From Escherichia phage vB_EcoM-RPN187, in the sequence record OL770074.2: 64,000 nt of DNA. One strand, written 5' to 3'. The notes beneath the pieces are model-generated. The model ran no database searches. It was given only the letters and a program-made list of their open reading frames with translations, and had not been told where the DNA came from. Shown here piece after piece: positions 2,030 to 12,082 of this stretch (positions are counted from its first letter, which is position 1; every line of letters starts with the position of its first letter). The translations under genes and the position numbers were made by a program.

Positions 2030-2483
2030 GGAGGGTAGTGAGCACCTTATATAATGATTTGCCCATTACATATTCCCATTGAGAAGGTTTAATTAACGCG
2101 AATGCATCAAATTCAGGAATCTGTCTTCCGTCCGGGAACGTATGATAGGAATTACAAACACTGTTTCTGAATTGCTCGTGCTCTACAGGGATGGTATATA
2201 GGAACAGATGAATATTCTTATTGTCTGAGTAATGATGTTCACCTAGGTCTTTCAGGAAGGCAGGGTCATATTGTGTAAACCCAGTTTCTTCTTCGCATTC
2301 ACGAATAGCGGCTTCGATAGGAGATTCACCGGGCTCGACACGACCTTTAGGAATATCCCACCGATGAGCTAAAGAACCTTTAGGACGAGAACCAGTTACA
2401 CGCCCCATGAATAATTCTTTATCTTCGGTAAGGAAAATAATACCAGCTGATAGTTCTTTCACTTTATTTTTCTTACTCATCAT
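2025..2483 (-). CDS. nudE: Nudix hydrolase
   Basis: Nudix box-like GRVEPGESPIEAAIRECEEETGF; position next to e as T4 e.1/nudE. Start chosen at ATG with ATGA overlap to upstream stop; ORF track starts 5 codons earlier. Confidence 0.8.
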   Translation of the reverse strand: MMSKKNKVKELSAGIIFLTEDKELFMGRVTGSRPKGSLAHRWDIPKGRVEPGESPIEAAIRECEEETGFTQYDPAFLKDLGEHHYSDNKNIHLFLYTIPVEHEQFRNSVCNSYHTFPDGRQIPEFDAFALIKPSQWEYVMGKSLYKVLTTLL

Positions 2484-2971
2484 CTCAAATTCCTGCATTC
2501 GGTAATAAAACGTTCAACTTCATTATTCTTGGCCTTTATCTTGTCTTTATGTTCTTGTAAACTACTTTTAATAAGATTAATAATGATGGCGGCGGTACCG
2601 CCGCCAATGATGCCACCAACAACACTTATGATAATAGATGCTAATAAGATAGCAATAATATCAACAAAACCGAAAGAACTCACCTTAGTACTGAAAAACC
2701 ATATAGATGGTACAAATATAATCCATCCTGTTATCCATTGGCACTTATTGAAAAACTTTTCAAGCTCAGCTTGAGTTGTTCGTATTACTTCATCGATAGG
2801 TTGATATCCATTAATGTATCTGTTCACAATAATACCTGCTGGCTGGTCGATTTTAAATTCTTGGCAAATACGTTTCACTAAGTAGGATGGACATCCTGTC
2901 CATCCTACTGAATAGTATGAAATACCTTCGTTGCCATCGTCTATATTAGACCAATATGTTTTGTTAATCAT
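2480..2971 (-). CDS. hypothetical membrane protein, C-terminal FITECR motif
   Basis: ORF track 163 aa; hydrophobic/Gly-rich segment IIAILLASIIISVVGGIIGGGTAAIIINLI; ends ...ERFITECRNLR. Confidence 0.5.
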   Translation of the reverse strand: MINKTYWSNIDDGNEGISYYSVGWTGCPSYLVKRICQEFKIDQPAGIIVNRYINGYQPIDEVIRTTQAELEKFFNKCQWITGWIIFVPSIWFFSTKVSSFGFVDIIAILLASIIISVVGGIIGGGTAAIIINLIKSSLQEHKDKIKAKNNEVERFITECRNLR

Positions 2972-3657
2972 TACCAGCCTTCCATAGGGAATTCCAGATA
3001 AACTTGGGCGTTGACACGAATTTCATTGGTAATCTTTTTAAATCGGTCTGTATTACGAGATACACGTCCGAACCAACGCCATCCATTACTAATTGCACGA
3101 GAACCAGTGTGCCATGTTTGCCAATCAAACTGAAGAAGAGTACGATCTGGAGCTTCCCATTTCTCTAGTTCACCTTTTTCAATTTTTTCGAGGACTTCTT
3201 TGTGCCACTGGCGATAGATAAGTTCGCCATCAGGAATCTGACTGAACTCTGCAGTTCCTGTTGCAAAATGAGTAGGACACACATCAGCGTTAACAAGACC
3301 AAGAATATGTTCAGAATGGTAACGAGGGTTATCATAATCAGGTTGTCCTGCAGTAATAAAGTGTTGACCAACTGGAATATCAGGGCGTGGTACATCATCA
3401 TGGTGATATCCAGGAATAGCAGGATACCAACCAGGCATCAGCATGTGAACTCGTGAATCAAATACTACATCCGAGTCTTTCCAATCATCAGGAAGATTTT
3501 GGATAAAGCTACGAGTAATTGGGCCACCATTATCAAAAGCAAAATTCAAATCGCAGTTAAAGAACATAGGCTCGTTTTTAATCTGGTTGTTTTTAATCTC
3601 ATGAGCAAAACCACCTACTGCACGAGCTTGGCTATTAAACACTTTAGAACTATTCAT
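2971..3657 (-). CDS. hypothetical protein (HHDD motif; possible metal-dependent enzyme)
   Basis: ORF track 228 aa; ATG verified 3657-3655. Contains PGYHHDD and later His residues (YHSEH, WHTGSR). Fold not assignable by eye. Confidence 0.5.
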   Translation of the reverse strand: MNSSKVFNSQARAVGGFAHEIKNNQIKNEPMFFNCDLNFAFDNGGPITRSFIQNLPDDWKDSDVVFDSRVHMLMPGWYPAIPGYHHDDVPRPDIPVGQHFITAGQPDYDNPRYHSEHILGLVNADVCPTHFATGTAEFSQIPDGELIYRQWHKEVLEKIEKGELEKWEAPDRTLLQFDWQTWHTGSRAISNGWRWFGRVSRNTDRFKKITNEIRVNAQVYLEFPMEGW

Positions 3658-3658
3658 A

Positions 3659-3964
3659 TTATTTTCCTCGGCATTCTTTAATGAAATTTTCTAGATTGGT
3701 AGATTCAATAGCTTTTTTACGAGCTTCTGCGTGTTCTTCTTCAGACAATTTACATTTATAATTGACCCAGGCATTATGGTCGAAACTAGTCGTGGCATAT
3801 AATAACAATGCTCCGACGAATAATAAAAACGGTGATAAGAATACAAAACCAGGAACACCATCCATATCGTAAGCCTTTTGTAATACTGCAACAGAAAGGG
3901 CCGCGTAAAAAGGTGATGCAAATATTGTTAAAAGACCAATTCGGTTGGTTTCTGTTAATTTCAT
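3659..3964 (-). CDS. small membrane protein, C-terminal ENFIKECR motif
   Basis: ORF track 101 aa; two hydrophobic helices (LLTIFASPFYAALSVAVL, FVFLSPFLLFVGALLLYA); GAGGAG SD; ends ...NLENFIKECRGK. Confidence 0.5.
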   Translation of the reverse strand: MKLTETNRIGLLTIFASPFYAALSVAVLQKAYDMDGVPGFVFLSPFLLFVGALLLYATTSFDHNAWVNYKCKLSEEEHAEARKKAIESTNLENFIKECRGK

Positions 3965-3992
3965 ATTATTCTCCTCATGTTTTAATAGGACT

Positions 3993-4022
3993 ACTATAAC
4001 ATAGTCCTATCATGTTGTAAAC
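3993..4022 (-). promoter_or_regulatory. T4-type early promoter embedded in a stem-loop
   Basis: Minus strand GTTTAC (4017-4022), 18 nt, TATAGT (3993-3998); 9-bp inverted repeat ataggacta/tagtcctat (3985-4010) spans the -10 region. Confidence 0.55.
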
Positions 4023-4034
4023 AGTTTTGTGAAG

Positions 4035-4991
4035 TTATTTGAAAGGTTTCACCATATGAAAATTTTCTTTAAACCGTTTGATGTAATCATTTTTGCCGAG
4101 CTTATGATACATAGCCACTACTTCATAATAGTTCTCGTATGCGTACTCACGGAACCAACCAGAGGTGATGCTTGTACAGACCTTTTCCAATGCCATCATG
4201 AAACTGGCTTCAGGGTTAATTTTAAAGTCATTAGGAATCTGAGAACGTTCTAATGCTAGTACACATGATTCTTCGTATACACCGGCCAATTTGACCATTT
4301 CTGGTAATGATTCGAACTTCTCTCGTGAGGTCATGACTTCAGAACCGTCTTTCATATAAAATGTATACGCTGGACGGTCTGTTAGCGCAATGGCTTCATG
4401 AATAGTATCATGGTCATATGTATAGATGTCATCTTTAAAGAACGCACTTTTAGAAGTGTCAAGAACTGGGTGAGCATAGTTCAAGGTTTCTTTCTGGCGT
4501 TTCAGCATAATTTCAGTAAGTTCATCGTTCAGTGTAACACCTTTACCGCGAAGATACTGAATATGGTTCATAGTCTTTAAAAAGAATGGATTATTTTTCT
4601 TGAAACGATGAGACATCTTAATTGCAAGACACATCTCAGGAGTTGCCCAGTAAAACCCGTTCAAACGGTCTTTAGTCAAATTTTTCTTGGCGTATTTTAA
4701 AAGGTCATAAGAAGACGTGAAATCTTCAGGAGTGAGTTCACCGACTAATTCACGGACATTAGTGATTGCCGGAACAATATATGCTTCAAAATGAGTTTCG
4801 CGTCCGTTATGGAAACATTTGAAAACTTGGACACCAGGGTTATCTTGATGAACGTATACACCCATCATTTGATTTTTGAATGCATTCCAAGAACCTTGGT
4901 CTGCAATAAAGTCCCAGTCACTATTTTTGATAGCGTTAGAATCAATAAGACCGTGATAGTGAAGTGCACGAGAACCAATAACTAACATCAT
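4035..4991 (-). CDS. hypothetical protein, 318 aa (possible nucleotidyltransferase-like N-terminus)
   Basis: ORF track; ATG verified with GAGGAAA SD. N-terminus IGSRALHYHGL...NSDWDFIAD loosely resembles the GS...DxD motif of Pol-beta-fold nucleotidyltransferases; spacing is longer than typical. Confidence 0.5.
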   Translation of the reverse strand: MMLVIGSRALHYHGLIDSNAIKNSDWDFIADQGSWNAFKNQMMGVYVHQDNPGVQVFKCFHNGRETHFEAYIVPAITNVRELVGELTPEDFTSSYDLLKYAKKNLTKDRLNGFYWATPEMCLAIKMSHRFKKNNPFFLKTMNHIQYLRGKGVTLNDELTEIMLKRQKETLNYAHPVLDTSKSAFFKDDIYTYDHDTIHEAIALTDRPAYTFYMKDGSEVMTSREKFESLPEMVKLAGVYEESCVLALERSQIPNDFKINPEASFMMALEKVCTSITSGWFREYAYENYYEVVAMYHKLGKNDYIKRFKENFHMVKPFK

Positions 4992-5019
4992 AATATTTTC
5001 CTCGGATTAATTCATTAAC

Positions 5020-5271
5020 TTAAATTTCACGACATGCGATATCATATTCATCCCATAGGTCATCGTGTGAAGCCTCTACTAATGGAACGATTGTACCATT
5101 TATGTCTTCATTATAAGGGCAAATTGTACAGTGTGCATCTTCGAATCGGATGCCTTTGTGTTCAGATTTTTTATAACGCATATCGAATATCTTTGCAAAC
5201 TTTTCACGAGTAATGGTTTTAGCAACCACTTTGGTTCCAACACTTTCGTAATAAATCATTGTGGACTCCAT
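5020..5271 (-). CDS. hypothetical small protein
   Basis: ORF track 83 aa; own early promoter upstream (5288-5317); ATG verified 5271-5269. Confidence 0.45.
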   Translation of the reverse strand: MESTMIYYESVGTKVVAKTITREKFAKIFDMRYKKSEHKGIRFEDAHCTICPYNEDINGTIVPLVEASHDDLWDEYDIACREI

Positions 5272-5287
5272 TTAATTTGATAGGACT

Positions 5288-5317
5288 ACTATAACATAGC
5301 CCTATCTTGTTGTAAAC
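5288..5317 (-). promoter_or_regulatory. T4-type early promoter next to an imperfect stem-loop
   Basis: Minus strand GTTTAC (5312-5317), 18 nt, TATAGT (5288-5293); near-identical sequence to the 3993-4022 promoter. Confidence 0.55.
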
Positions 5318-5321
5318 TGTT

Positions 5322-5519
5322 TTAGCAAGAATAACTAGATGATACCCAGCCTTGAACAGTAATACTATTATTTGATACCGAGATTGCATTCTGGAGATTC
5401 AAACCTGCATTATCTTCAATCCACAATGTAACTTCTTCGCGTTCTTCTGTTGCAATTTGGAACAGGTTTTCTAGGGCAGCTACTGCCGTACGTACAGCAC
5501 AATCCAATTCACGAGACAT
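5322..5519 (-). CDS. small protein, member of tandem paralogue family with C-terminal GWVSSSxxC motif
   Basis: ORF track 65 aa; ends ...TVQGWVSSSYSC; ATG verified. Confidence 0.45.
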   Translation of the reverse strand: MSRELDCAVRTAVAALENLFQIATEEREEVTLWIEDNAGLNLQNAISVSNNSITVQGWVSSSYSC

Positions 5520-5528
5520 ATAGTTTCC

Positions 5529-5801
5529 TTAGCAAGTGTGAGAAGATGCAATCCAACCACCAGTTTCAAGGCTCAGGTTGTAGTCGTATTGGTAAACGTC
5601 AGCCCATTCAGCATAGCCGTTTTTTGTACAACGTTCAAGATCGGCTTTAAGTTGTCCGGGTGAATGATATGTTCCACCCATACCATAAGCTGGATACAAG
5701 TCGAATGTTGTGTTTTGTTTATCAGCAATTTCTTTGGCAGCCTCAATAGCTGCATAGATTTTTGCTACGGCTTCAGCCAGTTCGGTTTGTTCTTTAGACA
5801 T
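5529..5801 (-). CDS. small protein, member of tandem paralogue family with C-terminal GWIASSxxC motif
   Basis: ORF track 90 aa; ...YGMGGTYHSPG...ETGGWIASSHTC; stop runs into SD TAAGGAA of the next gene. Confidence 0.5.
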   Translation of the reverse strand: MSKEQTELAEAVAKIYAAIEAAKEIADKQNTTFDLYPAYGMGGTYHSPGQLKADLERCTKNGYAEWADVYQYDYNLSLETGGWIASSHTC

Positions 5802-5810
5802 AATGATTCC

Positions 5811-6116
5811 TTAGCACAACGCAGAAGACGAAACCCAAGCACCTTCAGTAATAACGTAACCATTACCTTCACGCTTAACATCGCCACCATTATTTTCAAT
5901 TTCATCTTTCATCCACTGGGATACGATTTCACCCTTAGGATAATAAGTACGACCGCTACCATAATCACCTACAGAAAATGATACGGCGTATTGGTCTGCG
6001 ATCTTTGTTGCTTCTTCTTCGATACGTTCAGCTTGATTCAGAAGTTTATAAATTGCATCTGAAGCGGATTTGGCATCATTAAACTCTGGTACTTTAATTT
6101 CAATAATCTTACTCAT
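5811..6116 (-). CDS. small protein, member of tandem paralogue family with C-terminal AWVSSSxxC motif
   Basis: ORF track 101 aa; ...GDYGSGRTYYPKG...TEGAWVSSSALC; ATGA overlap with upstream gene. Confidence 0.5.
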   Translation of the reverse strand: MSKIIEIKVPEFNDAKSASDAIYKLLNQAERIEEEATKIADQYAVSFSVGDYGSGRTYYPKGEIVSQWMKDEIENNGGDVKREGNGYVITEGAWVSSSALC

Positions 6117-6472
6117 TTTCTACATTCCTTAATAAAGTTTTCGATTGTTTCATTTTCACGTCTAGCTAGGAGTTCATTATAACTAATCATTTGAGAAGCG
6201 TAAACCTTTTTATTTTTCTTGTTATGGTTTATAAAATCGTAGTAAAAATAGACTACAGTACAAAATGATGCGATGGATGCAAAGGCTTGGGTATACCGTA
6301 AGTCCTGCCATTGGTCTGTGAATCCACCAGTGTTCCCTATAAATCCTAACACAACGCCGTCAATAAGAAATCCAACTAATCCAAAGGCAAATCCCATGCC
6401 AATACTCATAATAAAAATTAGAATGTTCTCACCAAGAGAAGGCCATACGGTTAAGAGTTGAGGCTTTTGCAT
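6113..6472 (-). CDS. membrane protein, C-terminal ENFIKECRK motif
   Basis: ORF track 119 aa; hydrophobic/Gly-rich segments (ILIFIMSIGMGFAFGLVGFLIDGVVLGFIG); ends ...ETIENFIKECRK. Confidence 0.5.
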   Translation of the reverse strand: MQKPQLLTVWPSLGENILIFIMSIGMGFAFGLVGFLIDGVVLGFIGNTGGFTDQWQDLRYTQAFASIASFCTVVYFYYDFINHNKKNKKVYASQMISYNELLARRENETIENFIKECRK

Positions 6473-6846
6473 CTTATTTCCTTAACGAATTCCATAGCTT
6501 CTTCATATTCGTACTTTTTAACAGCTTCATCATACTGAGCTTGGGCTTTTGCGCACTGAACTTTCCATTCTCTTAATCGGGCTCTATAATGACGTCCTTG
6601 GTGCCAATATCCTACCCAATTAATAGGCATTAATAAAAACGGTACAATAAGTGGTGCGACGAACATTAATGAAAATGCTGCATCAGACGATATAACTTCA
6701 CTAGAATCTAAAACAGCTCCTATAATCATAAAGATTAAAAATGCTAAAGCTAAAATAGGGCCAAATAGTACTTCGTTTGGGATTAATTTACGCTTGTATT
6801 CATACGCCCAGGGCTTAATTGGCATGTATAGGGTTGGCTTTGACAT
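6451..6846 (-). CDS. membrane protein (start uncertain)
   Basis: ORF track 6451..6876 starts at a TTG; first ATG at 6846-6844. Hydrophobic helices (FGPILALAFLIFMIIGAV, FSLMFVAPLIVPFLL); ends ...EFVKEIRCKSLNS. Confidence 0.4.
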   Translation of the reverse strand: MSKPTLYMPIKPWAYEYKRKLIPNEVLFGPILALAFLIFMIIGAVLDSSEVISSDAAFSLMFVAPLIVPFLLMPINWVGYWHQGRHYRARLREWKVQCAKAQAQYDEAVKKYEYEEAMEFVKEIRCKSLNS

Positions 6847-7411
6847 ATTCTCTACATTCCATAATAAATTGCTCAAGGATTAAATTGTTAGTGAAATTAG
6901 GACTAACAACCATGGTTTCATAAAGCGCATCAATAGCACTTAAAGCATCAACTCTTTTAAGCAAAGGCTTGCCTTCATACATAGTTTCAGAATCGACGAT
7001 TAACGTAAAGTAATATTTTTTATTATTGACCAGAACTTCTGTATCAATATAAAACATGTTAGATCTTAAAAGCTTATCTCTAAAACCATAATAATCTTCA
7101 GAGCGTTCGCTGATATATTCCAATTCAGTGTTTAAACAACAAACAGACCACGTAGGAGCAACGAAATCAGTGAATCTAATATCATGGTCTGCAACTAGTT
7201 TAGCAATAGCTCCGATATCATGAATCATAATACCTGGGGCTAATAAAGATTTTCGGTTATTTGCATATTCAGTTGTCTCATAAGAAGACGACCAGTACCA
7301 TTTACGTCCAGTTGCAACATATCGTAATGAATCAACTAAAGACGTAGGTGGATTTACCTTATTTCGGAACTCTTCGAACATTGAGTCAATATCATTATTT
7401 TGGTTTCGCAT
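6815..7411 (-). CDS. hypothetical protein with C-terminal EQFIMECRE motif
   Basis: ORF track 6815..7432; ATG at 7411-7409 with AAGGAG SD is the likely start (MRNQNNDIDSMFEEF...). Confidence 0.5.
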   Translation of the reverse strand: MRNQNNDIDSMFEEFRNKVNPPTSLVDSLRYVATGRKWYWSSSYETTEYANNRKSLLAPGIMIHDIGAIAKLVADHDIRFTDFVAPTWSVCCLNTELEYISERSEDYYGFRDKLLRSNMFYIDTEVLVNNKKYYFTLIVDSETMYEGKPLLKRVDALSAIDALYETMVVSPNFTNNLILEQFIMECREYVKANPIHAN

Positions 7412-7430
7412 GTTAACTCCTTTATTATCC

Positions 7431-7452
7431 AAAAGGAGGACCGGAGTCCTCC
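7431..7452 (-). terminator. intrinsic terminator-like hairpin
   Basis: 7-bp stem ggaggac/gtcctcc with cgga loop (7435-7452); minus strand followed by UUUU; lies 9 nt after the stop of the 7461..8054 gene. Confidence 0.4.
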
Positions 7453-12052: not shown

Positions 12053-12082
12053 ACTATAACATAGTCCTATCAACATGTAAAC
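12053..12082 (-). promoter_or_regulatory. T4-type early promoter beside a stem-loop
   Basis: Minus strand GTTTAC (12077-12082), 18 nt, TATAGT (12053-12058); inverted repeat taggac...gtcctat at 12044-12070. Confidence 0.55.

What the first reader, a model, noticed from the sequence alone, without database searches (positions are those of the whole stretch)
5322..6116. Three tandem paralogous small genes sharing a C-terminal G-W-[VI]-[SA]-S-S-x-x-C tail
The adjacent genes at 5811-6116, 5529-5801 and 5322-5519 end ...EGAWVSSSALC, ...TGGWIASSHTC and ...VQGWVSSSYSC, and the two longer ones also share a YG.GG.TY..PG block. Codon usage differs between copies, so conservation is at the protein level. 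Each stop codon runs into the next gene's SD (TGC-TAA-GGAA). The motif ending in Cys could be a recognition or modification site. No T4 counterpart recalled.
Basis: seen in the sequence. Interest (0 to 1): 0.55.

Follow-up and report, generated by a model that had tools for sequence, protein, structure and literature searches.

The report
Cys-tailed phage proteins partnering a nucleotidyltransferase
Three neighbouring small phage genes really do end in the same unusual eight-residue tail finishing on a cysteine, and this tail marks a large, undescribed phage protein family that almost always sits just upstream of a nucleotide-transferring enzyme, which points to an unstudied enzyme-and-partner module in large lytic phages.

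Summary
Three minus-strand genes (5811-6116, 5529-5801, 5322-5519) in this RB69-like Mosigvirus end in ...WVSSSALC, ...WIASSHTC and ...WVSSSYSC. About 0.003 such ORF ends are expected by chance.

My best reading is that the tail is the contact and modification site for this enzyme. An antitoxin-like regulator role, as for MenA1 with MenT1, is the main rival. Function is untested, and I found no literature on it.

The parts
5811..6116 (-). Gene 1 (101 aa, orthologue of RB69ORF139c). Small acidic protein with a long helix, a YGSGRTYYP hairpin and the tail ...GAWVSSSALC.
5529..5801 (-). Gene 2 (90 aa, orthologue of RB69ORF137c). Same family, with a YGMGGTYHSPG block and the tail ...GGWIASSHTC.
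   Evidence: phrog_899, E 2e-18. Family HMM, E 2e-22.
5322..5519 (-). Gene 3 (65 aa, orthologue of RB69ORF136c). Helix plus short beta region with the tail ...QGWVSSSYSC. It lacks the YG-x-G block.
   Evidence: phrog_4882, E 2e-36. Aligns to the gene-1/2 family only over the last 13 residues.
5811..5837 (-). Tail of gene 1 (W94 to C101) plus the stop codon.
5529..5555 (-). Tail of gene 2 plus the stop codon.
5322..5348 (-). Tail of gene 3 plus the stop codon.
6176..6205 (-). T4-type early-promoter-like site (GTTTAC-N17-TATAAT) inside e.3, 60 nt upstream of gene 1. Probable promoter of the three-gene unit (inferred).
   Evidence: A middle promoter is annotated at the equivalent place in phage SA35RD.
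5279..5306 (-). Hairpin just after gene 3 (dG -16 kcal/mol). It overlaps the early-promoter-like site at 5288-5317 that precedes the next unit.
   Evidence: A terminator is annotated at the equivalent place in SA35RD.
5020..5271 (-). 83-aa ORF (phrog_3723, unknown function) between the tail genes and the enzyme gene. It is not conserved in the more distant cassettes.
4035..4991 (-). 318-aa partner enzyme (orthologue of RB69ORF134c; Pfam DUF7277 + DUF7275). Predicted nucleotidyltransferase with invariant G6-S7...D25-x-D27 and E69.

Best explanation
The three genes encode small, acidic, cytoplasmic early proteins of a large phage-only family. The family is defined by the C-terminal tail G-x-W-x-[S/A/P]-S-S-x-x-Cys-COOH.

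They are the client half of a conserved two-part cassette: one to six tail-bearing genes, followed on the same strand by a nucleotidyltransferase of about 310 aa (here 4035-4991) with a MenT/AbiEii/ANT-like fold.

The most likely mechanism is that the tail is the shared handle through which the enzyme recognises these proteins. The enzyme would transfer a nucleotidyl (or phosphoryl) group to a tail serine hydroxyl, or to the terminal cysteine, and so switch the activity of proteins whose variable bodies and acidic linkers do different jobs.

Shown: the family, the tail, the confident novel-looking fold, the enzyme's fold and catalytic motif, and the very strong gene linkage.

Inferred: physical contact, modification, its chemistry, and the downstream biological role.
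For: 1. Tail invariance at the exact C-terminus. A profile search found 640 clusters (50% identity) at E<=1e-3 (only the best 150 were listed), with the match running to the last residue in almost all of those listed. 128 of 136 new representatives end in Cys. W(-8), S(-5), S(-4) and C(-1) are fixed while flanking positions vary.

2. The tail is portable. In Phapecoctavirus-like contigs and in phage FKP3 (Justusliebigvirus), six consecutive ORFs of 52-139 aa upstream of the enzyme all end in W-x-S-S-S-x-x-C-like tails, and only two or three of the six are recognised by the family HMM. Other tail-bearing bodies fall in phrog_23943 or in no family. Gene 3 aligns to genes 1 and 2 only over the tail. 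Seven members carry internal W-x-[SD]-S-[SG]-C copies in the linker.

3. Linkage to the enzyme.
- In 13 loci found through the YGMGGTYYP block plus the window, a homologue of the 318-aa protein lies next to the small genes in 11 of 14.
- In 80 loci found through the enzyme (39-95% identity; contigs 8-371 kb), 71 have 1-5 tail ORFs upstream on the same strand and none downstream. Four more have variant tails.
- 173 of 178 positive ORFs lie in the 3.5 kb upstream (1,876 ORFs) against 5 among 19,539 other ORFs.
- The reciprocal check holds for Xanthomonas phage XbC2, Ralstonia phage RSP15 and Klebsiella phage FKP3, and for Acinetobacter, Pseudomonas and Stenotrophomonas phages.
- No other neighbour is conserved.

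5. The enzyme occurs without tail genes in locus L054 and in distant homologues, and single tail genes are broken in some phages. This fits accessory clients better than an obligatory antidote.
Against: - No interaction or modification was tested, and no complex prediction was possible with these tools.
- In the AF2 model of gene 1 the tail is part of the fold (strand 93-96, short helix 97-100; pLDDT about 89 over residues 91-100 and 70 at the last residue, C101). It is not a free peptide, which is less typical of a modification tag.
- The closest solved relative, MenT1, acts on tRNA, not on protein, and is controlled by a small helical protein encoded upstream (PMC10435456). That favours the regulator model.
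- In this window the small genes and the enzyme gene lie in separate transcription units, with an 83-aa ORF between them.
- The 80 loci are not phylogenetically independent.
Confidence: 0.38

Rival explanations
1. Antitoxin-like regulators. The small proteins bind the nucleotidyltransferase through their conserved N-terminal helix and block or tune its active site. This is how the 68-aa MenA1 controls MenT1, by occluding the active site and inducing auto-phosphorylation of the active-site Thr. The tail would plug the catalytic pocket. The enzyme's real substrate would be something else, for example tRNA 3' ends.
For: - MenA1 is a short helical protein encoded upstream of MenT1 that blocks its active site and induces phosphorylation of T39 (PMC10435456; PMC11375011).
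- The phage enzyme has an invariant Ser7 next to Gly6 in the G-S motif. Equivalence to MenT1 T39 is assumed, not aligned here.
- The small genes lie upstream on the same strand.
- They have a conserved amphipathic helix (A36 nearly invariant, A40 invariant) and are strongly acidic (median net charge -8), as a mimic of nucleic acid might be.
- Enzyme homologues lie next to RNA ligase, PNK or tRNA genes in several phages.
Against: - One regulator would suffice, yet 58 of 80 loci carry two or more or none, and up to six distinct bodies share the tail.
- Orthologous gene-1, gene-2 and gene-3 lineages are kept in the same order across genera.
- The C-terminus of MenA1 is disordered, whereas here the exact C-terminus is the most conserved feature.
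- There is no sequence similarity to any PDB chain, MenA1 complexes included.
- The enzyme exists without tail genes in L054 and in distant homologues.
- The cassette is in virulent phages, not in bacterial chromosomes.
Confidence: 0.27
2. The tail works independently of the enzyme. It could be a thiol or metal site formed on oligomerisation, a docking peptide for a host protein, or a stability signal. Linkage to the nucleotidyltransferase gene would then reflect only co-inheritance of an early-gene block.
For: - The tail is predicted to be part of a compact fold.
- A single conserved Cys per chain could build an inter-subunit site.
- In this window the two units have separate promoter-like sites, with a hairpin between them.
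- In a Stenotrophomonas phage the tail genes lie downstream of the enzyme gene rather than upstream.
Against: Linkage survives across Straboviridae, Phapecoctavirus-like contigs, Justusliebigvirus, Otagovirus, an Ackermannviridae-classified phage, Menderavirus and 360-kb jumbo phages, while every other neighbour changes. Chance co-inheritance over that distance is unlikely.
Confidence: 0.15
3. Chemistry beyond simple nucleotidylation.
(a) A RiPP-like or crosslinking route, in which an activated Ser is eliminated and the Cys thiol adds to give a lanthionine-like C-terminal ring.
(b) A carrier-protein role, in which the terminal Cys thiol or carboxylate is adenylated to carry a group, by analogy with ThiS/MoaD or LysW.
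For: - The S-S-x-x-C spacing resembles lanthionine ring spacing (my knowledge, not tested).
- Several precursor-like genes precede one enzyme gene.
- The proteins are small and acidic with a fixed C-terminal motif, like carrier proteins.
Against: - No lanthipeptide, YcaO, radical-SAM or E1-like enzyme is nearby.
- The proteins are predicted to be folded, not leader-plus-core peptides.
- The enzyme fold is Pol-beta-like, not E1-like.
Confidence: 0.08
4. Not a real feature: chance similarity, or a translated remnant of the ribosome-binding site.
For: TGC-TAA-GGAA is shared by genes 1 and 2.
Against: - The expected count of such ORF ends in the window is 0.003, against 3 observed.
- The Shine-Dalgarno sequence lies after the stop codon.
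- Gene 3 keeps the tail with no gene following it.
- Hundreds of distant homologues keep the tail with different codons and different downstream sequence.
Confidence: 0.01

Closest known systems
MenAT1 toxin-antitoxin pair of Mycobacterium tuberculosis (MenT1, a DUF1814 nucleotidyltransferase, plus the 68-aa antitoxin MenA1)
   Different: - There is no sequence-level match to DUF1814 or to any PDB chain.
- The enzyme here has a large extra conserved C-terminal helical domain (DUF7275).
- The cassette is in virulent phages, not bacterial chromosomes.
- There are one to six partner genes rather than one.
- The partner's defining feature is an invariant C-terminal Cys tail, whereas the C-terminus of MenA1 is disordered.
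Type VII HepT/MntA modules and GlnE/GlnD-type enzymes (Pol-beta-fold nucleotidyltransferases that nucleotidylate a partner protein's hydroxyl group)
   Same: A nucleotidyltransferase is encoded beside a small partner protein that offers conserved hydroxyl residues. This is the working analogy for the client model (my knowledge of these systems).
   Different: The partners here have no HEPN domain or any known domain. The acceptor would be Ser or Cys in a C-terminal tail, not a Tyr. Nothing was tested experimentally.
Antibiotic hydroxyl nucleotidyltransferases ANT(2'')-Ia and LnuA
   Different: There is no sequence similarity. The setting is phage early genes, with an added DUF7275 domain and linked protein partners.
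Multi-precursor RiPP clusters (several precursor genes served by one modifying enzyme)
   Same: Arrays of short genes sharing one conserved segment lie directly upstream of a single enzyme gene.
   Different: The conserved segment is at the C-terminus rather than being an N-terminal leader. The proteins are predicted to be folded. No known RiPP enzyme class is present.

Membership tests
PHROG 899 / PHROG 4882 (uncharacterised phage protein families) | Significant match to the family HMM | tested here: met
   Gene 1 at 1.3e-22 and gene 2 at 1.9e-18 to phrog_899. Gene 3 at 1.6e-36 to phrog_4882. All are annotated 'unknown function'.
Cys-tail family as delimited in this report | W-x-[SAP]-S-S-x-x-C at the exact C-terminus of a small acidic protein | tested here: met
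   All three genes. 128 of 136 new family representatives end in Cys.
Cys-tail family as delimited in this report | Encoded within a few kb upstream of, and on the same strand as, a DUF7277-DUF7275 nucleotidyltransferase gene | tested here: met
   In the window, gene 3 ends at 5322 and the enzyme gene spans 4035-4991. The pattern holds in 71-75 of 80 enzyme loci.
MenAT / AbiE (DUF1814 nucleotidyltransferase toxin with cognate antitoxin) | Toxin matches the DUF1814/AbiEii sequence family | tested here: not met
   Pfam reports only DUF7277 and DUF7275 even at E<=10. A profile search against PDB sequences finds no MenT or AbiEii chain.
MenAT / AbiE (DUF1814 nucleotidyltransferase toxin with cognate antitoxin) | MenT-like bilobed nucleotidyltransferase fold with the hG[GS]...D-x-[DE] motif | tested here: met
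MenAT / AbiE (DUF1814 nucleotidyltransferase toxin with cognate antitoxin) | Small partner homologous to a known MenA/AbiEi antitoxin | tested here: not met
MenAT / AbiE (DUF1814 nucleotidyltransferase toxin with cognate antitoxin) | Enzyme is toxic and the partner neutralises it; the enzyme extends tRNA 3' ends | not testable with these tools
   This needs expression, growth and tRNA assays.
MenAT / AbiE (DUF1814 nucleotidyltransferase toxin with cognate antitoxin) | Resident in bacterial chromosomes, plasmids or defence islands | tested here: not met
   Only 5 matches in one genome for each of 185,579 species, all on metagenome-assembled contigs. There are 733 phage records.
HepT/MntA type VII toxin-antitoxin | Partner is a HEPN RNase (R-x4-6-H motif) | tested here: not met
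   No HEPN or any other Pfam domain in the small proteins.
RiPP precursor peptides | Leader/core peptide next to a known RiPP-modifying enzyme class | tested here: not met
   Neighbours carry no LanB/M/KC, YcaO or radical-SAM domains. Gene 1 is predicted to be a compact folded domain.
Ubiquitin-like or sulfur-carrier proteins (ThiS/MoaD) | Beta-grasp fold, C-terminal Gly-Gly, E1-like adenylyltransferase partner | tested here: not met
   The tail ends in Cys. The fold is helix plus sheet with no beta-grasp match. The partner has a Pol-beta-type fold.

The most novel reading that the evidence does not exclude
The eight-residue W-x-S-S-S-x-x-Cys-COOH tail is a portable, enzyme-read protein tag specific to large lytic phages. 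The linked nucleotidyltransferase would covalently nucleotidylate the tail, or convert its Ser/Cys pair into a crosslink through an activated Ser. In this way it would control a diversifying set of small effector proteins. That would be a previously unknown protein-modification system.
Probability: 0.15. Interest if true: 0.9.

Novelty: new variant of a known kind. Interest (0 to 1): 0.64.

Why it matters
If this is right, a conserved early-gene cassette has gone unnoticed under 'hypothetical protein' labels. It is present in Mosigvirus and many other T4-type phages, in Phapecoctavirus-like, Otagovirus and Menderavirus phages, and in jumbo phages, though not at the T4 e.2/e.3 site.

It pairs a catalytically intact nucleotidyltransferase with a fast-diversifying set of small proteins that share one invariant C-terminal motif. 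That pattern is typical of host-takeover or counter-defence functions.

The hypothesis is directly testable: mass shift on the tail, tail-dependent binding, enzyme toxicity with and without the partners, and tRNA 3'-end state. It could reveal either a phage version of MenT-type control or a new protein tag.

It also supplies a simple sequence rule for finding the clients: an ORF ending W-x-S-S-S-x-x-C upstream of a DUF7277/DUF7275 gene.

Tried and rejected
**Searches on the small proteins that found nothing**
- Pfam, NCBIfam and PADLOC on the three proteins gave nothing significant. The weak Peptidase_S78_2, E217_Gp32 and PDC-S49 hits are below cut-off and not shared by relatives.
- Weak DUF4279 hits of two relatives were not reproduced across 37 members, so I dropped them.
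- The family profile against PDB sequences found nothing.

**Annotations judged to be noise**
- 'Tail completion protein' and 'major capsid protein' labels on these genes in a few records.
- The 'sulfurtransferase' label, which belongs to the e.4-like neighbour.

**Ideas considered and not pursued**
- RBS-remnant or chance explanation: rejected.
- Nucleotide-sponge idea (glycine-rich YGMGG loop plus Ser/Trp): considered, but there is no evidence for it and it does not explain the enzyme linkage.

**Searches on context and literature**
- Other conserved neighbours (228-aa, 83-aa and 101-aa ORFs): none is shared with distant cassettes.
- Fusions of the enzyme with a tail: none among 120 homologues.
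- The search for related loci with the small-protein alignment failed because no stretch was conserved enough. It was replaced by a DNA pattern for YGMGGTYYP.
- Literature searches for the RB69 ORF names, PHROG and Pfam accessions, and motif strings returned nothing relevant.
- Source names for the enzyme's cluster are 'hypothetical protein' or, in one entry, 'DUF7275 domain-containing protein'; the exact sequences of genes 1-3 are not in the collection.

Full report
**Setting.** The window is an RB69-type T4-like phage (Mosigvirus). Bases 4900-6600 are 99.9% identical to Escherichia phage AV112. The three genes lie on the minus strand between the e.3 membrane-protein gene (6113-6472) and a block that ends at e.2. 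They are the orthologues of RB69ORF139c, 137c and 136c. In T4, e.2 and e.3 are directly adjacent, so roughly 2971-6116 is an insertion relative to T4. A scan of T4 bases 1-50,000 found neither the small family nor the enzyme. The rest of T4 was not scanned.

**The observation.**
- The ORFs at 5811-6116 (101 aa), 5529-5801 (90 aa) and 5322-5519 (65 aa) end ...GAWVSSSALC...GGWIASSHTC and ...QGWVSSSYSC.
- No other ORF in any frame of the window ends W-x-[SA]-S-S-x-x-C. The expectation is 0.003, and 200 shuffles gave one match in total.
- Codons differ between the tails.
- Genes 1 and 2 share Y-G-x-G-x-T-Y and both hit phrog_899. Gene 3 hits phrog_4882.
- Pairwise BLASTP is marginal. hhalign aligns an eight-sequence gene-3 alignment to a 37-sequence gene-1/2 alignment only over the last 13 residues (probability 74%, E 2.7e-5).
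- So the tail is the solid shared feature. Homology of the bodies is shown for genes 1 and 2 only.
- TAA-GGAA coupling holds for genes 1 and 2. Gene 3 is followed by a hairpin (dG -16 kcal/mol, z -2.6) that overlaps a T4-type early-promoter-like site. A similar site at 6176-6205 lies 60 nt upstream of gene 1.

**The family.**
- A word-indexed profile search gave 61 proteins.
- An exhaustive profile search of 1.84 billion representatives gave 640 clusters at E<=1e-3 and 85 at E<=1e-10; the best 150 were listed. Nearly all listed hits are 70-145 aa, with the match running to the last residue.
- 128 of 136 new representatives end in Cys. Most exceptions carry one extra residue.
- A typical member has an amphipathic helix ending ..AE-x-IADE.., a hairpin h-x-F-x-F...YGMGGTYYP, and an acidic, aromatic-rich linker of 7-50 residues (26% Asp+Glu). 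It ends [DE]-G-G-W-[VIQM]-[SAP]-S-S-x-x-C. Median net charge is -8.
- Seven members repeat W-x-[SD]-S-[SG]-C inside the linker.
- No Pfam, NCBIfam or PADLOC family covers these proteins.

**Structure of gene 1.**
- AlphaFold2 with a 32-sequence alignment gives pLDDT 92.4 and pTM 0.78.
- The model has a helix at 15-43, strands at 47-49 and 56-59, a helix at 67-75, and strands at 79-83, 86-91 and 93-96. The tail then forms a short terminal helix at 97-100.
- Foldseek against viral models returns only uncharacterised relatives.

**The partner gene.**
- Loci retrieved through the YGMGGTYYP block showed tandem arrays of two or three family genes. The later copies often lack the YGMGG block, as gene 3 does.
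- Clustering of all neighbouring ORFs revealed one conserved neighbour: a protein of about 300 aa homologous to window 4035-4991, present in 11 of 14 loci; several of the missing loci are short or cut off at that point.
- No other neighbour is shared.
- Contig look-ups for distant small proteins and for distant enzyme homologues confirmed the pairing.

**Systematic linkage test.** I took 80 viral loci holding an enzyme homologue (39-95% identity; contigs 8-371 kb).
- 71 have 1-5 same-strand ORFs within 5 kb that hit the family HMM or end W-x-[SAPT]-S-[ST]-x-x-C. All are upstream.
- Four more have variant tails..SSWVQSSC..NWDSSTC..GWDSSSC and ..WQSSQQNC.
- Four related loci carry one tail gene about 6.5 kb away on the other strand. 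Only one locus (L054) has none.
- Overall, 173 of 178 positive ORFs fall in the 3.5 kb upstream on the same strand (1,876 ORFs), against 5 among 19,539 other ORFs.
- The loci are not independent samples, but they span very different phage groups.

**The pairing in annotated genomes.**
- Acinetobacter phage KARL-1, Pseudomonas phage M5.1 (Otagovirus) and Pseudoalteromonas phage H101 (degenerate tail ..WYESRC) all show it. In Stenotrophomonas phage Bhz51 the tail genes are downstream of the enzyme gene.
- Xanthomonas jumbo phage XbC2, Ralstonia phage RSP15 and Klebsiella phage FKP3 also show it.
- In Phapecoctavirus-like contigs and in FKP3 (Justusliebigvirus), six consecutive ORFs upstream of the enzyme carry the tail on bodies that are mostly unrecognisable to the family HMM.
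- Some such bodies belong to phrog_23943 or to no family.
- Very distant enzyme homologues (26-35% identity, partial matches: DSS3_VP1, Streptomyces, Gordonia, KVP40) have no tail genes nearby.
- The cassette is essentially absent from bacterial genomes: 5 hits in one genome for each of 185,579 species, all on metagenome-assembled contigs.

**What the partner is.**
- The 318-aa protein matches only Pfam DUF7277 (N-terminal) and DUF7275 (C-terminal) and phrog_2141, all of unknown function. It matches no PDB sequence.
- It has 2131 homologues and is far better conserved than the small proteins (43-75% identity across distant phages).
- Invariant residues include G6, S7, D25, D27 and E69, plus many in the C-terminal domain: K125, H128, H174, H194, D195, H198, C243 and C272.
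- AlphaFold2 gives pLDDT 91.4.
- G-S-x17-D-x-D is the Pol-beta-type catalytic signature (established knowledge). It is present in 115 of 120 listed homologues.
- So the protein is a nucleotidyltransferase by fold and motif, but not a sequence-level member of DUF1814.

**Interpretation.** The portable, invariant tail at the exact C-terminus, its multiplicity, and its near-obligate position upstream of one enzyme gene argue that the tail and the enzyme work together. Two concrete models fit.

*Client model (preferred, 0.38).* The enzyme recognises the tail and nucleotidylates or phosphorylates a tail Ser or the Cys. This model explains:
- why unrelated bodies keep the same tail;
- why there are one to six clients;
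- why the motif can be repeated internally;
- why the enzyme can exist without clients;
- why single clients can be lost, as with the RB69ORF139c truncation and a frameshifted gene 2 in other phages.

Related folds do act on hydroxyl groups, and MenT1 phosphorylates a protein Thr in its own active site (PMC11375011).

*Regulator model (0.27).* This follows the MenA1-MenT1 precedent, in which a short helical protein encoded upstream blocks the active site and induces auto-phosphorylation (PMC10435456). It fits the gene order, the conserved helix, the acidity and the invariant Ser7. It does not explain the multiplicity or the terminal Cys.

*Other readings.* A role independent of the enzyme (0.15) and more exotic chemistry (0.08) remain open. 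An artefact is excluded.

**Limits.** None of the mechanistic steps was tested.

**Novelty.** Searches of the paper library for the RB69 ORF names, the PHROG and Pfam accessions and the motif strings found nothing. Wherever a source names the enzyme it is 'hypothetical protein', apart from one 'DUF7275 domain-containing protein' entry and a few isolated labels in individual records. I therefore regard this as an undescribed phage cassette. Its nearest analogue is a nucleotidyltransferase with a small partner protein, as in MenAT1, but it has a new partner family and a new defining motif.

Noticed in passing
window 2480-2971, 3659-3964, 6113-6472, 6451-6876, 6815-7432 (all minus strand): A second set of neighbouring genes shares a C-terminal motif. 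The e.2/e.3/e.4/e.5-type membrane proteins end ..NFI[KT]ECR(x1-3)..FVKEIRCK.. or ..FIMECREYV... T4 e.3, e.5 and an ORF beside e.2 do the same, as do several genes in locus L054. The two copies that bracket the Cys-tail/enzyme cassette end almost identically (..NLENFIKECRGK and ..TIENFIKECRK).
   Followed up: partly
window 3993-4022, 5288-5317, 12053-12082 (minus strand): There are three near-identical copies of GTTTACAACAWGATAGGRCTATGTTATAGT, an early-promoter-like site fused to a hairpin (hairpin at 5279-5306, dG -16 kcal/mol). Two of them bracket the 83-aa ORF plus the enzyme gene. They resemble the mobile promoter/stem-loop cassettes described for T4-type phages (from memory, not checked).
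   Followed up: partly
window ~2971-6116, compared with T4 67,652-68,319 (L123): T4 e.2 and e.3 abut, so the whole block (three tail genes, 83-aa ORF, enzyme gene, 101-aa membrane protein, 228-aa protein) is an insertion in a hyperplastic region relative to T4.
   Followed up: partly
P0002 (RB69ORF139c), P0046, P0006: Individual tail genes are truncated or frameshifted in some phages. RB69's gene-1 orthologue stops at 71 aa, and gene 2 is a 75-aa frameshift product in vB_Eco_mar005P1-like phages. Single copies therefore look dispensable, or these are sequencing errors.
   Followed up: no
L120 (Ralstonia RSP15), L118 (Xanthomonas XbC2), L028 (DSS3_VP1), L029 (Streptomyces BillNye), L030 (Gordonia WilliamBoone): Homologues of the nucleotidyltransferase often lie beside RNA-repair or tRNA genes:
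- RnlB RNA ligase 2 directly downstream (RSP15).
- RNA ligase and PNK 3-5 kb upstream (XbC2).
- RNA ligase 2 and a metallophosphoesterase upstream (DSS3_VP1).
- PNK nearby (BillNye).
- A tRNA array downstream (WilliamBoone).
This hints at an RNA or tRNA-end substrate.
   Followed up: no
L016, L027, L028; L023, L024, L031, L121: NAD-related genes recur within a few kb of the cassette in unrelated phages: nicotinamide phosphoribosyltransferase in L016, L027 and L028, and Sir2 in L023, L024, L031 and L121.
   Followed up: no
window 5020-5271 (minus strand): An 83-aa ORF (phrog_3723, unknown function) containing ..HCTICPYNEDING.. sits between the tail genes and the enzyme gene. It has its own early-promoter-like site upstream and is not found in distant cassettes.
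   Followed up: partly
L109 7720-7959: One tail protein carries a run of twelve Asp residues before ..WNSSGCSWQSSQQNC, an extreme case of the acidic linker with a doubled tail motif.
   Followed up: no
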